This document shows, in pieces, positions 4,169 to 8,960 of a DNA stretch of 64,000 bases; positions within the stretch are counted from its first letter, which is position 1; each line of letters begins with the position of its first letter. The translations under genes and the position numbers were made by a program. Below the pieces are notes generated by a model. The model saw only the letters and a program-made list of their open reading frames with translations. It was not told where the DNA came from and ran no database searches. The stretch is from a virus, in the IMG/VR virus record IMGVR_UViG_3300050821_001994, positions 3,834 to 67,833 of that record. One strand, 5' to 3'.

Positions 4169-4292
4169 TCCGGAAACCGTACGCATTTTGAGTACAAACG
4201 TACTCTTTTTGCGTACATCTTGAGGTCGCAAATTGCGACTAGAGCGTGGAACCCGTTGAGGGCTTAAGGGCGGCACGTACAAAAACCGCCCA

Positions 4293-4563
4293 ACAATTTT
4301 AGTAACAAGTTTAAGTTGTGTGGGCGAGCGGCTAAAGCCTGACCCATACCTATAAAGCGGAGAGAGCAAAAAGACGGGGGTATGGCCCGAGTCTCTCGTT
4401 CGCACGAAGGTTCGAAACCTTCCGCAACTTAAAGTTCACGGGCCGAAGAAGGAACTGCATCAATCTTCGGAGCAATCTATCTGTCAAGCCTATTGGATCA
4501 ATTCCGCCCTGCATGGGGATTTACACGCCTCTAGGTAGCCCGTACAATTTTAGTAACAAGTTT
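4293..4563 (+). repeat. 20-nt direct repeat ACAATTTTAGTAACAAGTTT (4293-4312, 4544-4563)
   Basis: Exact duplicate; each copy directly precedes a structured RNA. Confidence 0.9.
4310..4433 (+). ncRNA. tRNA-like RNA with an expanded, pseudoknotted anticodon region
   Basis: Acceptor stem AGTTGTG/CGCAACT, D-arm GGC-GAGCGGCTAAA-GCC, T-arm GAAGG-TTCGAAA-CCTTC; no normal anticodon arm and no CCA. Confidence 0.65.
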
Positions 4564-4713
4564 GAAGCGTGAGCGAGGAATGATCCCCTCCGCGCTGTCT
4601 ATAAAGTAGCCGCTCGAAAGAGAGACGCGGGATGACCAAGACCTTCCCGCCCTGCCCACCGCGAAAGCGACACGGATCATTGGGACAGATAGGCGAGGGC
4701 AATATCACGCTTC
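4564..4713 (+). ncRNA. Unclassified structured RNA
   Basis: Closing stem GAAGCGTGA/TCACGCTTC; AATGATCC/GGATCATT pairing; GAAA tetraloops; no ORF. Confidence 0.55.
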
Positions 4714-4980
4714 TTTACTAACGGAGTCGAAGTCCCGGAAAAAGACGCGGCAACCTCACATTAGCCCGTCAAAGGTCCAGTAACCCGATTGTGAAACGGG
4801 CAGGATCAACTTCTTCAATTTTGACGTAAGGGCCGGATTGCCCGTAACGTCCCCAAACCGTGCGTGAGGGAATATTTCGAGATTCTCTACCTCGAAGCCC
4901 GCAAATCTATCGGATTATAGATTGCCCGCGAGCGCACAAGAGCAGCTTAGGCTGAACTTAGACTTAACAGGTGACTACCT

Positions 4981-7900
4981 ATGGGCTTTAGCCCAGCATC
5001 AAATAACCAGTCAAACCTGCCTCAGTCCACGGTTCGTTACTACGACAAAAAGTTCCGTTTGTAAATCTCGCGGAATTGTAGGCCAAGCTGAAATACCTGA
5101 TTTGGAGAACCTGAAGGCTTAATTTGGGCCTTTAGAGCAGGTAGAAATAAAACTCGGCTATATCGGTGAACCTCTGATTTGTCAACCTGACAATCATTGT
5201 GATATAATCAGACAATACCGAGGAAAGACGTTTTGAAAGAAACCAAATTTGCTTATGTGGCCGGACTCATTGACGCTGACGGAAGTTTTTCAATCAGCCG
5301 ATCCGAATCCAAAGAAGGCTACATTCACTACGACCCTCTGATAAGGATTCGATCCAAACATTTGCCGACCATGCGATGGCTGGTTGACACGTTTGGTGGC
5401 TATCACCGCCCACAAATTTTAGATGGTGAAATCTACTATCAGTGGAAATTTAGTAGCGACACACAAGCTTCGCGGTTTCTGGAGAAGATTATTCCGTATG
5501 TATGGATCAAACAGCAGCAAGGTTTGGTGCTGAAAGAATACTACGGGCTACAAGGCGTTCAAAATAAACCTTTGCGACAGTCCTTGTACGAGAAAATAAT
5601 AACTCTAAACCAGAACGAATCCGTCACGACTAATACGCCGAGATTGCCGTTTTCCGGAAAGATTCTACCCGCGTACCTCGCGGGGGTTTTCGACGGAGAA
5701 GGCAGCGCATACGTTATACGAGTGAAACAAACCTATAGTAGTGGGTTTTACTACAGGGCTTCGATTTCTCTAGGCATGTCTTATAAGCCCCTGATTATGG
5801 AGCTACAAAGACTGTATGGAGGAGCGTGGCGACAACGACCCCCGCATCGCGGGAAGTTGCCGATGTACCAGTGGGACGTACAAGACAACAAGAGCAAAGA
5901 AATCTTCTCGTTGTCCGTACTTCCATATCTGGTAACGAAGCGAGAGCAAGTCAATATTGCACTCAATTTCGCTCGTATGAACGGAAAACCCGATCCCGAA
6001 AAAAGGATCGCAATGTGGAAACGCTGCTGCGCTTTGAACGGCAATATGATAGAGCCTGAACTCGCGGGTGACCGCGAGAGCGCCTCGTTGGTGACAACTA
6101 CGGCCTAAACACTCCTGCAAACCCCCTTCGTCGCGTGCTCCGAGCGTCTCGACCTCCCGATGAAGAGTGGTAACCAGTACAACCTCTACATGTACGTCCC
6201 GCTCGCAGCGAATACTGCTCAGACCACCGAGGGTACTGTGGGCAGCGGCGTCACGGTTAGCGTTCTGAATACTTCGGCTACGATTGGCGAGTACGCAGAC
6301 TATGCTAACTTCTCCAGCCTTTCGCTCGCGACCGCAATCGACAACACTGTTGAGAACGTCGCCCGTGAAATGGCCTACCGTTTGGGCGAGTCATTGTCCG
6401 CTCTGGTCCGTGCAACTGCGGACGGCGCGAACAGCGTTGATAGCTCGGTACTGACGAAGCTCGCTGCTACGTCAACCACCAGCTTCACGACTCTCTCCCT
6501 GACCTACATCCGAAACGCTGTCCAGTCTTTGGCTGGTCGCTCGGTTCGCCCGTTCGATGATGCTAGCAAGAACTTCGCTGGCGTTATCCATTAACAGTAG
6601 GGTGGATATAAAACTTGACTATATCGGTGGATATCTGTTATAATTTGTCAATCTGACAGACAATACCGAGGTAAGGTCCAATGTTCCAAATAAGCAAGAC
6701 AAAGTGCTCGTATCTGGGCGGCTTGGTTGATGGTGAAGGCAATATCTGCATCTGGCGCACCGAAGCCCGTGCGCATGATTATAAAGTTTCAGGAAGAGTT
6801 TATCCTTCGTTTAATCTGAGACTGCATATTGCAAACACCAACGTAACTCTCATGAAATGGTTAGTCTCGAACTTCGGTGGTGTGTACCACATGAAGAAGG
6901 AAGCCACGGATCGGCACGCAGCCGCTTACGAATGGCGGCCTAAAGGCGAGGGAAACACGAAGCGTACTTTGCTCGCAATTTTACCGTACTTGGTAATCAA
7001 GCGAGAACAAGCGATTCTGGCCCTCAAATATATCGAGCTACCGCAGCAGGCTCCCGAAGCCCGTGAAGCGATCTACCAACGCATGAGACAACTAAACCAA
7101 AAAGGACCAAAAACCGTAACGACTAATACGTCAAGCTCTTTGCTACTTCCTGAGATTCCGGAAACCGTATGGGAAGCCCTCAGGGAACATGAAGAGAAGA
7201 TAGAGTCTGAACTCGGCAGTGATGCCGAGAGCGCCCCCGTAGTGATGCGGGGCTCGGGTACGGCTCAATCAGTTGAGCAACAACTTCAGCAAGCAGGACA
7301 GAGAATAGTCAACGCTTTGCTGGACGCCCGTTAAGCCTAAACACAATTACCTTTCGCCCTTGGCGACGTTCTGGCGGACAACTCGAACGACTCTCCCATC
7401 GACATCCTGAAGCGGACCCCGCAGGGTTACGCCCGTCTTGACGAAATCATCTCGACGGACCTGACCGAAGTCATCGAAATCCCGACTTCCGGCGTCAGCT
7501 TCTTCCAGTCAAACCTCGTCACCACGTCCTCGAACTACAATCCGGGAACTGGCGCTGTTACTGGTTTGACCGCTCTGCGTACCTATCAAGCCACAGCTTA
7601 GGTAGCTTTCACGGGCGACCGTGATTGAAAAACAAGGCTAATTCGGTGAACATCCGGTTTCCGGACAATACCGAGCGAAGCCCGCAAGTTATCGCGGGAA
7701 CGTGTAGAGACTATAGACCTTGCTTCCCTCGTGGAAGATGAGATAGTCCGCTCTCATGGGTAACTATGAGAGGTTGGCAGAAATGACCAACCTCAACAAC
7801 GCAAGTTGTTGATAACAAAAGGATTTTCGGTCGCGACGGCATCTTCAGCATAAACCTTGGCGCACAAGGCGACACAGGTTATGGAGATGGCGAATGGCGG

Positions 7901-8251
7901 AACATCCGATGCAACATCGTACAGAATGCCGAGCCTTCGGTCGCTGATCCTAGCGGCTTGATCCCCGGCTGGACTTCCTTAACAAACTAGGGGCACCGTA
8001 CGGATAACGTACGAATGCGAATTTCCTCTGATTAAGCTGAACCCTGAAACGGGAACAGACTGCAAGCAGCGAAAGCGGGCAGCAGTAGAGACTGAGCGAG
8101 GAAATGCCCGGACACGGGCAATGCGACAGTCCGATCTTGTGGGAATCAAACCACAAGCTAACACCTTGATAGAGTCCACTTTACGACGAGCCTCGGGCCC
8201 GATACTACCATTCGTATCCGCGAGATCGACGCAGCGTCGGCAATCAGCTAG
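4981..8251 (+). CDS. Major capsid protein (N4 gp56-like), spliced; exons 4981-5058, 5105-5119, 6118-6591, 7350-7586, 7823-7979, 8169-8251
   Basis: RBS AGGTGA; joined exons total 1044 nt and are open in frame: MGFSPAS..YYDKKFR|ENLKA|QTPFV..AGVIH|PFALGD..LRTY|IFGRDG..GWTS-Y-RVHF..SAIS*; YYD, IHP and IFG motifs fit gp56-like capsids. Confidence 0.88.
5059..5104 (+). other. 46-nt intervening sequence, candidate coreless group I-like mini-intron
   Basis: Contains in-frame TAA and shifts frame; exon UUCCGU pairs GCGGAA with U.G at the junction; UCUC pairs 3' exon GAGA; ends in G. Confidence 0.7.
5120..6117 (+). mobile_element. Group I intron 1 in capsid gene
   Basis: P1 AAGGCU/GGCCUU; P10 UUUG/CAAA; P3 CTCGGC/GCCGAG; P4 TCGGT/ACCGA; GACTA P7 strand; terminal G. 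Confidence 0.9.
5233..6108 (+). CDS. Double-motif LAGLIDADG homing endonuclease (intron 1)
   Basis: YVAGLIDADG and YLAGVFDGEG motifs; TGTGATATAAT promoter-like element upstream. Confidence 0.92.
   Translation: MKETKFAYVAGLIDADGSFSISRSESKEGYIHYDPLIRIRSKHLPTMRWLVDTFGGYHRPQILDGEIYYQWKFSSDTQASRFLEKIIPYVWIKQQQGLVLKEYYGLQGVQNKPLRQSLYEKIITLNQNESVTTNTPRLPFSGKILPAYLAGVFDGEGSAYVIRVKQTYSSGFYYRASISLGMSYKPLIMELQRLYGGAWRQRPPHRGKLPMYQWDVQDNKSKEIFSLSVLPYLVTKREQVNIALNFARMNGKPDPEKRIAMWKRCCALNGNMIEPELAGDRESASLVTTTA
6592..7349 (+). mobile_element. Group I intron 2 in capsid gene
   Basis: P1 AUCCAU/GUGGAU; P3 CTTGAC/GTCAAG; CCGTAACGACTA; same architecture as intron 1; last base is A. Confidence 0.88.
6681..7334 (+). 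CDS. Single-motif LAGLIDADG homing endonuclease (intron 2)
   Basis: YLGGLVDGEG; ILPYLVIKREQA. Confidence 0.9.
   Translation: MFQISKTKCSYLGGLVDGEGNICIWRTEARAHDYKVSGRVYPSFNLRLHIANTNVTLMKWLVSNFGGVYHMKKEATDRHAAAYEWRPKGEGNTKRTLLAILPYLVIKREQAILALKYIELPQQAPEAREAIYQRMRQLNQKGPKTVTTNTSSSLLLPEIPETVWEALREHEEKIESELGSDAESAPVVMRGSGTAQSVEQQLQQAGQRIVNALLDAR
7587..7822 (+). mobile_element. Group I intron 3 (236 nt, no ORF)
   Basis: P3 CAAGG/CCTTG; TCGGT/ACCGA; GTAGAGACTA..GATAGTCC P7; P9 hairpins; terminal G; removal restores TY|IFG. Confidence 0.88.
7980..8168 (+). mobile_element. Group I intron 4 (189 nt, no ORF)
   Basis: P1 UCCU/GGGG; P3 TTTCCTC/GAGGAAA; GTAGAGACTG..GACAGTCC P7; terminal G; removal restores the T|AT codon. 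Confidence 0.88.
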
Positions 8252-8372
8252 TTTGTCCGTTTGACAAACTTTGTGGTATAATCTAATTAGGTAGGGTAAT
8301 TCCTGCCTATTGAATTCGAGAGGGCGGGTGCCTTCATCACTCGCCCCCTTGATTCCCTATGAAGGAGGGAAT

Positions 8373-8960
8373 GTGGTCGAAGTAAAAATAGGAGATGTAT
8401 ACGGGCGCTTAACTGTTGTTGCCCGAGAAGAAAACGACGACAGACAGTTAACGCGGTGGACGTGCCGATGTAGTTGCGATGGCAAGTTGGTAGTCAAACA
8501 CGGCTTTGCTCTCCGAAGAAAAGTTAAGCCGACCAGAAGTTGTGGGTGTCTCCGGGCATACACAGCGATTTTGAACAACCACAAGAAACCGGGTCATCGC
8601 GCAATACATACTCCTGAGTATTGGGCATTCAAGGCGGCGTTCGGTCGCTGCACTAATAAGAACAACAGAAGTTACCCGCACTACGGCGGGCGGGGGATTG
8701 AGTTTCGATTCGCCTGTTTTGAAGATTTTCTTAGAGACGTAGGCTATCGTCCGTCTCCGAAACACTCCCTAGACAGAATTGATAATAACGGGCATTACGA
8801 AGCGGGCAATATGCGGTGGGCTACAAAAGCAGAGCAGGCCAAGAACAGACGCCGCCCTTTTGATCCGGACCGTATACAGGATGATTTGAATAGACTTCTT
8901 GTAGATTATGCTTTGGTGGCTTCAGCACAACTTGTCAACTTGACAAACGCCGTGCAATAG
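8373..8960 (+). CDS. Free-standing HNH-type homing endonuclease
   Basis: YGRLTV..CRCSC, YGGRGI, SLDRIDNNGHYEAGNMRWAT; GAAGGAGG RBS; TGTGGTATAAT promoter upstream. Confidence 0.85.
   Translation: MVEVKIGDVYGRLTVVAREENDDRQLTRWTCRCSCDGKLVVKHGFALRRKVKPTRSCGCLRAYTAILNNHKKPGHRAIHTPEYWAFKAAFGRCTNKNNRSYPHYGGRGIEFRFACFEDFLRDVGYRPSPKHSLDRIDNNGHYEAGNMRWATKAEQAKNRRRPFDPDRIQDDLNRLLVDYALVASAQLVNLTNAVQ

What the first reader, a model, noticed from the sequence alone, without database searches (positions are those of the whole stretch)
5059..5143. 46-nt coreless mini-intron in the capsid gene, possibly spliced by the neighbouring ribozyme
Seen: the capsid frame YYDKKFR is broken by 46 nt that include a TAA and shift the frame, then resumes as ENLKA. 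The insert has the substrate features of a group I intron. Exon UUCCGU pairs GCGGAA (5070-5075) with a U.G pair at the junction (P1). UCUC (5066-5069) pairs the 3' exon GAGA (P10). The last base is G. It is far too short to contain P3-P9. Its 3' part UACCUG(A)UUUG (5094-5104) is complementary to UAGA(G)CAGGUA (5133-5143), an extra segment between P1 and P3 of intron 1 that the similar intron 2 lacks. Known: group I cores can act on P1 substrates supplied separately. Inference: this is a non-autonomous satellite intron docked onto intron 1, so one core serves two sets of splice sites in an essential gene.
Basis: partly seen in the sequence, partly recalled or inferred. Interest (0 to 1): 0.95.

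Follow-up and report, generated by a model that had tools for sequence, protein, structure and literature searches.

The report
Coreless mini-intron in phage capsid gene
A 46-base leftover of a self-splicing intron interrupts a phage's capsid gene, has lost all of its own catalytic parts, and is still cut out exactly from the RNA, most likely by borrowing the catalytic core of a full-size intron next to it.

Summary
Bases 5059-5104 interrupt the capsid frame between KKFR and ENLKA, which are contiguous in all 78 related capsid loci that cover the site.

The insert keeps only group I substrate parts: a P1 hairpin with U.G at the splice site, an adjoining P10 guide and a final G.

Contigs from two soil metatranscriptomes carry the predicted junction TTCCGT|GAGAAC...GCT|CAAACC, while a DNA run is colinear. 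So the insert is spliced at the RNA level, and ribosomal bypass is refuted.

Full-size group I introns of 231 and 582 nt sit at the same site in relatives and share its 5' end. The mini is therefore a deletion derivative.

I found 21 distinct mini-introns of 34-94 nt at 9 sites of this capsid family. Compensatory changes occur in P1 and P10. Every assessable gene with a mini also holds full-size introns.

One RNA contig joins the last G of intron 1 (6117) to the first mini-intron base (5059). This suggests intron 1's core can use the mini's 5' splice site.

The borrowed-core mechanism is likely but not proven.

The closest precedent is the 56-81 nt degenerate group I introns of fungal rDNA. 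The look-up of earlier scan notes covered this window only.

The parts
4981..5058 (+). Capsid exon 1 (aa 1-26, ...STVRYYDKKFR). Its last 8 nt, 5051-5058, form the exon strand of P1.
   Evidence: tblastn against the intron-less Tunturi_3 major head protein P0001. An RNA contig ends this exon at 5058.
5059..5104 (+). 46-nt coreless group I mini-intron. It starts UUGUAAA (in-frame UAA at 5062-5064) and ends ...GAUUUG.
   Evidence: Absent from mature RNA contigs in X2 and X3, present in the DNA contig of X1. Absent in all 78 related loci that cover the site.
5066..5069 (+). P10 part of the internal guide (UCUC), pairing with the first 4 nt of the micro-exon (GAGA, 5105-5108).
   Evidence: P10 covaries with the exon in relatives (L202 against L204).
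5070..5077 (+). P1 part of the internal guide (GCGGAAUU), pairing with AGUUCCGU. G5070 lies opposite the splice-site U5058.
5104..5104 (+). Terminal G of the mini-intron (omega-G position).
   Evidence: The RNA junction lies directly after it.
5105..5119 (+). 15-nt micro-exon GAGAACCTGAAGGCT (ENLKA).
   Evidence: These 15 letters lie between 5058 and 6118 in the X2 RNA contig (table 5c) and in X3 loose ends.
5094..5104 (+). Mini-intron 3' segment UACCUGAUUUG, candidate partner of 5133-5143.
   Evidence: Pairing read in sequence and present in the MFE fold. Significance is weak.
5133..5143 (+). Part of the 13-nt extra segment after intron 1's guide (UAGAGCAGGUA), candidate partner of 5094-5104.
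5120..6117 (+). Intron 1 (998 nt). Guide UUUG+GGCCUU at 5123-5132, LAGLIDADG ORF at 5233-6108, last base G6117. This is the candidate helper core.
   Evidence: RNA joint 5119|6118 and head-to-tail joint 6117->5059. Pfam PF00961, E 3.4e-09.
6118..6591 (+). Capsid exon 3.
6592..7349 (+). Intron 2 (758 nt) with a LAGLIDADG ORF at 6681-7334. Its last base is A.
   Evidence: RNA joint 6591->7350 in X2 and X3. Pfam PF00961, E 2.1e-05.
7350..7586 (+). Capsid exon 4.
7587..7822 (+). Intron 3 (236 nt, no ORF).
   Evidence: Rfam RF00028, 43.8 bits, E 6.3e-09, below the gathering score of 50. RNA joint 7586->7823.
7823..7979 (+). Capsid exon 5.
7980..8168 (+). Intron 4 (189 nt), a member of the 'family X' group I introns.
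   Evidence: RNA joint 7979->8169. Aligned in A1. nhmmer E 3.6e-33.
8169..8251 (+). Capsid exon 6, including the stop at 8249-8251.
   Evidence: The joined exons give a 347-aa open frame, 282 of 343 residues identical to P0001.

Best explanation
Bases 5059-5104 are a degenerate group I intron that has lost its whole catalytic core (P3-P9). It keeps only the parts that define splice sites:
- a P1 hairpin presenting the 5' splice site (U5058.G5070);
- a directly adjoining P10 guide for the next exon;
- a terminal G (5104).

Shown: it is transcribed within the capsid pre-mRNA and removed exactly at the RNA level. This joins CGU|GAG and keeps the 15-nt micro-exon. It descends from a full-size intron that still occupies the same site in related phages.

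Inferred: 46 nt cannot build a guanosine-binding site, so a co-resident full-size group I intron performs the two transesterifications. Here that is chiefly intron 1, which begins 15 nt downstream.
1. The mini's P1/P10 helix docks into that core in place of the core's own P1.
2. A guanosine attacks 5058|5059.
3. G5104 takes the G site, and exon 1 attacks 5104|5105.

The element is one of a family of at least 21 such mini-introns (34-94 nt) at 9 sites of this capsid gene family. They behave like non-autonomous satellites of the full-size introns.
For: 1. RNA splicing.
- X2 metatranscriptome contig of 1244 nt, depth 11.4, 0 differences. It reads 4900-5058, then GAGAACCTGAAGGCT, then 6118-6591, 7350-7586 and 7823-7979.
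- X3, from another study, has a loose end after 5058 reading GAGAACCTGAAGGCTCAAACCCCCTTCGTC.
- The DNA run X1 is colinear over 4900-6162.

2. Homologues. KKFRENLKAQTPF is contiguous in Tunturi_3. None of the 78 IMG/VR loci that cover the site has an insert there (80 fetched).

3. Guide. P1 is 8 bp with U.G, P10 is 4 bp, and the last base is G. 576 of 200,000 shuffles reach this.

4. Same-site relatives.
- Of 12 pattern hits, 8 loci carry minis of 43, 48 or 51 nt at CGT|..G|GAGAAC.
- These lengths are not all multiples of 3, all carry stops, and all keep the guide and the final G.
- L205 (231 nt) and L208 (582 nt) carry full-size introns at this site with the same 5' end (18 of 18 nt against L201) and a ..AAAUUUG 3' end.
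- L205's intron fits a family alignment in which 31 of 37 pairs show compensatory changes.

5. Family. There are minis at 9 sites, all with P1 (U.G), an adjoining P10 and a final G.
- Compensatory changes: P1 bp 7 (L007/L011; L035/L225) and P10 bp 7 (L202/L204) and bp 6 (L035/L227).

6. Co-occurrence.
- 19 of 19 assessable mini-bearing loci also hold an insert of at least 150 nt in the capsid gene. A 20th locus is truncated.
- A second set gives 18 of 18; 4 of those are contigs already counted.
- In the unbiased 80 loci the split is 10 of 10 against 13 of 70, Fisher p 6.9e-07.
- The nearest full-size intron lies 15-85 exon nt away, upstream or downstream.

7. Core use. X2 contig of 221 nt, depth 4.18, joins 6009-6117 directly to 5059-5170. 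This is the joint expected of a full-length circle made when intron 1's last G attacks the mini's 5' splice site.
- The circularisation pathway of group I introns is described in the abstract of PMC6274462, which I saw only as a search listing.

8. No other core-like sequence lies nearby. There are no core motifs in 4170-4980, and the family X profile hits only introns 4 and 3.
Against: - No experiment or computation here shows that a core is required.
- X3 holds a contig laid up to 5119 that continues with exon 3. That means intron 1 removed with the mini still present. Strict dependence on intron 1 in cis is therefore either not obligatory, or these molecules are dead ends.
- The 6117->5059 joint rests on one contig in one run. 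These are assembled contigs, not raw reads.
- The docking helix is not statistically convincing (0.118, 0.014 post hoc, 0.995).
- Across 23 mini-neighbour pairs, only 1 tail pairs better than 95% of shuffles. No general tethering helix was found.
- The co-occurrence is confounded by descent: minis arise from full-size introns in intron-rich lineages. L201-L243 were also fetched with patterns that select interrupted genes.
- A 67-nt fungal degenerate intron is reported to self-splice in vitro when about 300 nt of flanking exon is present (PMC3160393; abstract, Background and Discussion read). Autonomy of very small introns has therefore been claimed before.
Confidence: 0.62

Rival explanations
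1. The mini-intron is an autonomous minimal ribozyme. Together with flanking exon or intron RNA used only as a scaffold, it catalyses its own two transesterifications, as reported for the 67-nt PaSSU intron of Phialophora.
For: - PMC3160393 (abstract, Background and Discussion read) reports 56-81 nt introns with P1, P7 and P10. It reports in vitro splicing of the 67-nt one only when about 300 nt of exon was included.
- X3 holds RNA with intron 1 gone and the mini retained, so the mini may not need intron 1 in cis.
- Tail hairpins of the roughly 72-nt minis covary (GUCAG/CUGAC in L225 against GCCAG/CUGGC in L238). The tails are therefore structured.
Against: - At 34-51 nt these are smaller than any intron claimed to be active.
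- I saw no P7-like helix in the window's 27-nt tail. In the minimum-energy fold the tail pairs with downstream intron 1 sequence.
- No mini was found in a gene without full-size introns (0 of 19 and 0 of 18 assessable loci).
- The 6117->5059 joint shows a foreign omega-G at the mini's 5' splice site.
Confidence: 0.15
2. A protein-dependent route removes the insert. Either a phage or host factor, such as an intron-encoded LAGLIDADG protein acting as a maturase, supports a non-canonical RNA catalyst, or an endonuclease plus RNA ligase cuts and rejoins at the hairpin.
For: - Introns 1 and 2 encode LAGLIDADG proteins.
- Lichen degenerate group I introns are said to need an unidentified dedicated machinery (PMC8527467; passages read).
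Against: - Compensatory changes keep both P1 and P10 complementary to the two exons.
- The U.G pair and the final G are kept in all validated minis. These features are needed for group I chemistry, not for a cut-and-ligate route.
- I did not search this genome for an RNA ligase or a splicing endonuclease.
Confidence: 0.08
3. The insert stays in the mRNA, and ribosomes bypass it (T4 gene 60-type hop). Take-off would be at UUG 5059-5061 before UAA, with landing at UUG 5102-5104, giving KKFR-L-ENLKA.
For: - Matched UUG codons, with a stop directly after the take-off codon.
- Cognate take-off and landing codons can also be found in L202 (CGU/CGA) and L204 (UUU/UUU) (read by eye).
Against: - Mature RNA contigs in two runs lack exactly 5059-5104.
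- L201 has no matched codons.
- A hop would add 1 to 17 residues inside a motif that is invariant in relatives.
- P10 and the terminal G would have no role.
Confidence: 0.01
4. The 'spliced' contigs come from an intron-less DNA twin of this phage that contaminates the RNA libraries, not from splicing.
For: RNA libraries can hold DNA, as the tool itself warns.
Against: - The contig is identical to the window over all exons.
- The closest other capsid coding sequences fetched are at most 82% identical.
- The same libraries hold intron contigs, a partly spliced form and the head-to-tail joint.
- The DNA run shows no joints.
Confidence: 0.03

Closest known systems
Small degenerate group I introns of fungal nuclear SSU rDNA (Phialophora PaSSU 67 nt; Arthonia, Porpidia; 56-81 nt). 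Source: PMC3160393; abstract, Background and Discussion read.
   Same: - Drastically shortened derivatives of group I introns that keep P1 and P10 and lose most of the core.
- Still removed from an essential RNA.
- Thought to need surrounding RNA for activity.
   Different: - The phage minis are smaller (34-51 nt for most, 46 nt here).
- They lie in a protein-coding phage gene and recur at 9 sites.
- I saw no P7 in the window's copy.
- They end in G, whereas PaSSU ends in U.
- They always sit beside full-size introns, and an RNA joint links a neighbour's omega-G to the mini's 5' splice site.
Degenerate, non-self-splicing group I introns of lichen rDNA. Source: PMC8527467; passages read.
   Same: Introns that have lost catalytic sequences yet are removed in vivo, which implies outside help.
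   Different: - They are about 200-300 nt with a partial core.
- The helper is unknown and presumed to be cellular machinery.
- They are eukaryotic nuclear rRNA introns.
Group I ribozymes acting on an external guide-substrate helix (template-directed ligation by Tetrahymena and sunY ribozymes, Doudna and Szostak 1989). Recalled, not read here.
   Same: A core without its own P1 joins RNAs that are aligned on a separate guide, with G as the leaving group. This is the geometry the mini's P1/P10 plus terminal G would offer.
   Different: That system is engineered and works in vitro. Here the arrangement is natural and lies in an essential gene.
Full-length circle pathway of group I introns. Source: PMC6274462; abstract seen in a search listing only.
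   Same: The omega-G attacks the 5' splice site and gives a head-to-tail joint, as in the 6117->5059 contig.
   Different: Here the 5' splice site belongs to a different, coreless intron. The circle would therefore contain mini, micro-exon and intron 1 together.
T4 gene 60 translational bypass of a 50-nt coding gap. Recalled.
   Same: A short untranslatable insert in a phage gene with matched flanking codons and a stop after the first.
   Different: The gap here is removed from the RNA, so ribosomes need not hop.
Euglena plastid group III and mini-group II introns, and the idea that spliceosomal introns use a trans-acting core. Recalled.
   Same: Degenerate introns that keep the splice-site elements and rely on catalysis supplied from elsewhere.
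   Different: They belong to a different intron class with different chemistry (a branch-point adenosine rather than guanosine).

Membership tests
Group I intron | P1 helix between the end of the 5' exon and an internal guide, with U.G at the splice site | tested here: met
   AGUUCCGU (5051-5058) pairs with GCGGAAUU (5070-5077), with U5058.G5070. P1 bp 7 covaries in relatives.
Group I intron | P10 pairing of the guide with the 3' exon, directly next to P1 | tested here: met
   UCUC (5066-5069) pairs with GAGA (5105-5108). P10 covaries between L202 and L204 and between L035 and L227.
Group I intron | Terminal guanosine (omega-G) | tested here: met
   G5104. All 14 validated minis, and those, end in G.
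Group I intron | Conserved catalytic core P3-P9 with a G-binding site in P7 | tested here: not met
   Only 27 nt follow the guide. The related full-size family needs about 180-240 nt for P3-P9.1 (alignment A1, 37 pairs). There is no Rfam match over 5040-6140 even at E 10.
Group I intron | Exact excision with exon ligation in RNA | tested here: met
   The 5058|5105 junction is present in contigs of runs X2 and X3.
Group I intron | Self-splicing with addition of an exogenous guanosine | not testable with these tools
   This needs in vitro splicing, or raw small-RNA reads showing the added 5' G.
Degenerate small group I introns (fungal rDNA, PaSSU type) | [quoted passage not shown] | tested here: inconclusive
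   P1 and P10 are present. No P7 is evident. In the MFE fold the tail pairs with downstream intron 1 sequence, but with weak support.
Degenerate small group I introns (fungal rDNA, PaSSU type) | Located in fungal nuclear SSU rDNA and monophyletic with the IC1 introns there | tested here: not met
   It lies in a phage capsid gene. It derives from phage intron 'family X'.
Programmed translational bypass (T4 gene 60 type) | Matched take-off and landing codons, with a stop after take-off | tested here: met
   UUG 5059-5061, UAA 5062-5064 and UUG 5102-5104.
Programmed translational bypass (T4 gene 60 type) | The gap is kept in the translated mRNA | tested here: not met
   The mature RNA contigs lack 5059-5104.
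Helper-dependent (non-autonomous) intron, proposed class | Found only together with autonomous introns that could supply the core | tested here: met
   19 of 19 and 18 of 18 assessable loci. Fisher p 6.9e-07 in the unbiased set of 80. The result is confounded by shared descent.
Helper-dependent (non-autonomous) intron, proposed class | The helper's core acts on the satellite's splice sites | tested here: inconclusive
   One RNA contig joins G6117 of intron 1 to base 5059. There is no functional test.

The most novel reading that the evidence does not exclude
Phage capsid genes harbour a natural class of non-autonomous 'satellite' group I introns. These are 34-94 nt relics that keep only the guide (P1/P10) and a terminal G. 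They persist at many sites of an essential gene because the ribozyme core of a co-resident full-size intron splices them, in cis or in trans. This would be a group I counterpart of the step from self-splicing introns to introns served by a shared catalytic machine. The relic may also keep the homing-endonuclease target site disrupted at minimal cost.
Probability: 0.55. Interest if true: 0.95.

Novelty: new variant of a known kind. Interest (0 to 1): 0.9.

Why it matters
Group I introns are textbook self-contained ribozymes. A 46-nt relic with no core that is still spliced accurately in nature would show three things if the borrowed-core reading holds:
- Splice-site definition and catalysis can be separated in natural group I systems.
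- One core can serve several sets of splice sites.
- Intron decay can stop at a stable, parasitic 'satellite' stage.

The system is small, and the hypothesis can be tested directly with a single transcript.

It also matters for annotation. Gene callers split or truncate such capsid genes, and Rfam's group I model reports none of the five interruptions of this gene at its gathering score. Interrupted phage genes are therefore probably under-counted.

Tried and rejected
- Ribosomal bypass. I raised it from the matched UUG codons and the stop. I rejected it because RNA contigs lack the 46 nt and because L201 has no matched codons.
- +1 frameshift giving a 15-aa insert. The ENLKA frame is open back to 4922. 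I rejected it for the same RNA reason, and because KKFRENLK is contiguous in relatives.
- A single intron 5059-6117 that drops ENLKA. Rejected because the RNA keeps the 15 letters.
- Other copies of the 46 nt. There are none in the 67,833-bp genome or in the 81 loci held at that point. An exact 23-nt search of viral contigs found 0.
None was in a capsid context, so the pattern was uninformative.
- A general docking helix between mini tails and neighbouring introns. 23 pairs were tested and only 1 beat 95% of shuffles.
- Global alignment of the minis to the full-size introns. Only the first 18-22 nt and the last 3-5 nt align reliably; the middle does not.
- Stronger conservation of the mini than of its flanks (L201 against L210). 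The mini differs at 1 of 51 nt, and the adjacent 45+85 exon nt differ at 5 of 130. That difference is not significant, so I make no claim.
- Near-identical intron-less contigs that might be cDNA of other mini-bearing phages. None was found; the best identities are 80-93%.
- A free-standing core upstream at 4170-4980. No core motifs and no profile hit.
- L072 (66 nt at aa 338.7) and L216 (90 nt at aa 39.3) were rejected as minis, because they lack P1/P10.
- L209 (Q in place of E after FR, no insert) and L212 (no capsid context, no insert found) also matched the pattern.
- Literature. Searches found no report of coreless or helper-dependent group I introns in phages. The Tunturi virus paper PMC11924767 has 0 mentions of 'intron'. 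Subscription journals are not covered.
Full report
**What is in the sequence**

The capsid gene starts at ATG 4981 and reads MGFSPASNNQSNLPQSTVRYYDKKFR up to CGT 5056-5058. It then runs into TTG TAA. The frame that encodes ENLKA begins at GAG 5105 and is shifted by +1.

The closest named relative is the intron-less major head protein of Tunturiibacter phage Tunturi_3 (PP885686.1). It is 84% identical over exon 3 and reads ...KFYDKKFRENLKAQTPFVAC.

tblastn with that protein, followed by the RNA data, gives six exons:
- 4981-5058
- 5105-5119
- 6118-6591
- 7350-7586
- 7823-7979
- 8169-8251

Joined, they make a 347-codon open frame, with 282 of 343 residues identical to the Tunturi_3 protein. The 46 nt at 5059-5104 are thus an insertion exactly between the codons for R26 and E27.

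**Is it more than chance**

The insert contains UCUC-GCGGAAUU at 5066-5077. This is complementary to the ligated exons AGUUCCGU|GAGA, with G opposite the splice-site U. It ends in G.

Only 576 of 200,000 shuffles of the 46 nt give a P1 of at least 6 bp with an adjoining P10 of at least 4 bp. Introns 1 and 2 show the same guide layout (UUUG-GGCCUU and AGG-GUGGAU).

**RNA evidence**

One search of public runs found a DNA run (X1) and two soil metatranscriptomes from different studies (X2, X3) that hold this stretch. The findings below come from laying these runs on the window.

X1 contigs are colinear with the window: 4900-6162 with 0 differences.

X2 holds a 1244-nt contig, depth 11.4, with no differences from the window. 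It runs:
- 4900-5058
- then the 15 letters GAGAACCTGAAGGCT
- then 6118-6591, 7350-7586 and 7823-7979

X3 has a contig ending at 5058 that continues GAGAACCTGAAGGCTCAAACCCCCTTCGTC. It also has joints 6591->7350, 7586->7823 and 7979->8169.

The mini-intron and all four full-size introns are removed exactly. These are assembled contigs, not raw reads, so they show presence and not amounts.

Two further RNA species matter.

- X3 holds a contig laid up to 5119 that continues with the start of exon 3. It also holds a contig that begins exactly at the micro-exon. This is the pattern expected if the assembly graph branches there. Some molecules have therefore lost intron 1 but keep the mini.
- X2 holds a 221-nt contig, depth 4.18, that joins 6009-6117 directly to 5059-5170.

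The second is a head-to-tail joint of the block [mini + micro-exon + intron 1]. The last G of intron 1 is ligated to the first base of the mini-intron.

Group I introns are known to make full-length circles when the omega-G attacks the 5' splice site (PMC6274462, abstract seen in a search listing). Here the 5' splice site attacked is the mini's. This is the only direct hint I have that intron 1's active site can hold the mini's P1.

**Origin**

None of the 78 IMG/VR capsid loci that cover the site has an insert there (80 fetched; L006 and L052 begin downstream).

A degenerate pattern for the end of exon 1, followed by any base other than G, gave 4 viral and 8 metagenome hits.
- 8 loci carry minis at the same CGT|...G|GAGAAC site, in lengths of 51, 48 and 43 nt. 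Several are the same contig held in two collections. With the window this makes 5 distinct sequences.
- L205 and L208 carry full-size introns of 231 and 582 nt at this site.
- L209 has a Q for E substitution and no insert.
- L212 shows no capsid context, and no insert was found there.

The full-size introns share the minis' 5' end (18 of 18 nt between L208 and L201) and a similar 3' end..AAAUUUG.

L205's intron aligns with 13 other small introns, including the window's intron 4. The consensus has P3-P9.1, and 31 of 37 pairs show compensatory changes. It is therefore a genuine group I ribozyme, even though Rfam does not score it.

The mini is thus a deletion derivative that kept the first 20 nt or so, some middle remnant and the 3' end.

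**A family of mini-introns**

Spliced alignment of all capsid loci showed short inserts at other known intron sites. Two more pattern scans added further cases. The figures are amino-acid positions in the Tunturi_3 protein.

| Site | Mini lengths (nt) |
|---|---|
| aa 19.7 | 70 |
| aa 22 | 45, 49 (two variants), 71, 72, 73 |
| aa 26 | 43, 46, 48, 51 (two variants) |
| aa 53.7 | 47 (two variants) |
| aa 300 | 51 |
| aa 301.7 | 34, 35 |
| aa 307 | 45 |
| aa 313.3 | 37, 94 |
| aa 327 | 45 |

By my count from those outputs this is 21 distinct sequences at 9 sites.

Each has a P1 of 6-9 bp with U.G, an adjoining P10 of 4-9 bp, and a final G. For L201 and L210 the register that restores KKFRENLK has one G-G mismatch at the start of P10. 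The best-scoring register, shifted by one base, would create a stop.

The guides track synonymous exon changes:
- P1 bp 7 is C-G in L007 and U-A in L011.
- P1 bp 7 is C-G in L035 and U-A in L225.
- P10 bp 7 is C-G in L202 and U-A in L204.
- P10 bp 6 is G-C in L035 and A-U in L227.

These compensatory changes show selection on pairing with both exons, which is what group I splice-site choice requires.

**Association with full-size introns**

Of 92 loci examined:
- 20 have a validated mini. 19 of these also have at least one insert of 150 nt or more in the capsid gene. The 20th, L207, is truncated soon after the mini.
- 14 have full-size introns only.
- 57 have no insert.
- 1 (L017) gave only spurious calls.

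In the 80 loci fetched without regard to introns the split is 10 of 10 against 13 of 70, Fisher p 6.9e-07.

In the second set, 18 of 18 mini-bearing loci hold full-size introns; 4 of these are contigs already counted.

The nearest full-size intron lies 15-85 exon nt away, either downstream or upstream. In L205 the positions are swapped: the full-size intron is at aa 26 and the mini at aa 53.7.

This fits dependence on a helper. It is confounded by descent, because minis arise where introns are common.

**The docking helix**

The pairing 5094-5104/5133-5143 exists and is part of the predicted minimum-energy fold. The 13-nt segment that carries its 3' strand is missing from intron 2 and from L023's intron at the same site.

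If it forms, it would act like a P2 stem linking the mini's P1 to intron 1's core. That would suit the composite circle.

Its statistical support is weak, however. The other aa-26 minis have no intron at that site. Across 23 mini-neighbour pairs there is no general excess of complementarity. I treat it as a reasonable local adaptation that remains untested.

**Mechanism and rivals**

- Shown: RNA-level excision at group I-type boundaries, descent from a group I intron, and loss of the core.
- Inferred: catalysis by a borrowed core, with intron 1 as the leading candidate. Any co-resident intron, in cis or as free excised RNA, remains possible.

The rivals are:
- Autonomous minimal ribozyme activity. 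The precedent is the 67-nt fungal PaSSU intron, which needs about 300 nt of exon (PMC3160393).
- A protein-dependent route.
- Ribosomal bypass, which is refuted as the main route.
- A contaminating intron-less DNA twin. This is unlikely, because the exons are identical to the window while the nearest other coding sequences fetched are at most 82% identical.

**What is known, and novelty**

Very small degenerate group I introns are known from fungal rDNA (PMC3160393). Catalytically impaired ones that need unknown machinery are known from lichens (PMC8527467).

My searches found no report of such elements in phages or bacteria, or of a natural group I core serving a second, coreless intron. The library omits most subscription journals.

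I therefore class this as a new variant of a known kind. A categorically new mechanism, the helper-dependent satellite intron, is the boldest reading still allowed.

**Earlier notes of this scan**

The look-up covered this window only. It showed notes on:
- the six-exon structure;
- the bypass alternative;
- intron 2 ending in A;
- an idea that the mini supplies a guide for intron 3.

I had reached the first three independently and tested them. The last I only checked by eye.

Noticed in passing
window 7340-7350: Intron 2 ends in A (..CACAAUUA|CCU), not G. RNA joints 6591->7350 in both metatranscriptomes fix this boundary with no ambiguity. Its guide AGG pairs with exon CCU. Related introns at the same site (L035, L058), and L023's intron at the intron 1 site, also appear to end in A (read by eye).
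   Followed up: partly
window 4170-4980: About 800 nt upstream of the capsid gene has no convincing ORF. The only Rfam match is a weak skipping-rope hit at 4564-4658 (18.7 bits, E 1.2). The X2 mRNA contig begins near 4842. There are no group I core motifs here.
   Followed up: no
window 7581-7610 and 5073-5082: Intron 3's local P1 places U opposite the splice-site U (ACCUAU/UUAGGU). The mini-intron's GGAAUU-GUAGG is complementary to the ligated exons CCUAU|AUUUUC in 10 of 11 positions. Intron 3 is spliced in RNA.
   Followed up: no
L225 (73-nt mini at aa 22); L022 (70-nt mini at aa 19.7): The roughly 70-nt minis contain sigma-70-like promoter motifs: TTGACA, 17 nt, TATACT in L225, and TTGACA, 17 nt, TAATAT in L022. 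These are perhaps relics of homing-endonuclease promoters. The tail hairpin of the 72-73-nt minis covaries (GUCAG/CUGAC against GCCAG/CUGGC in L238).
   Followed up: no
window 4981-8251: Rfam RF00028 reports nothing at its gathering score for a gene with four spliced full-size introns. Only intron 3 reaches 43.8 bits. Intron 1 and the L205 intron get no hit even at E 10. Two intron families are visible: 'X' (..CUGAUUGACUUGGAAGCUGAAAUGG..GAUAGUC..CAGAAAUGA..) and 'Y' (CUAUAUCGG..ACAAUACCGAGG, with LAGLIDADG ORFs).
   Followed up: partly
window 5233-6108 and 6681-7334: The LAGLIDADG ORFs of introns 1 and 2 (Pfam PF00961) run almost to the 3' ends of their introns. They therefore overlap the P7 3'-strand and P9 region (GATAGAGCCTG at 6048, GATAGAGTCTG at 7199).
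   Followed up: no
window 8310-8960: A 216-aa ORF directly after the capsid gene has no Pfam match at E 0.01.
   Followed up: no
related loci L002-L243: Intron sites cluster in the most conserved capsid segments: aa 19-31, 52-54, 89-109, 182-218, 264-268 and 292-339. Single genes carry up to five or more interruptions.
   Followed up: partly
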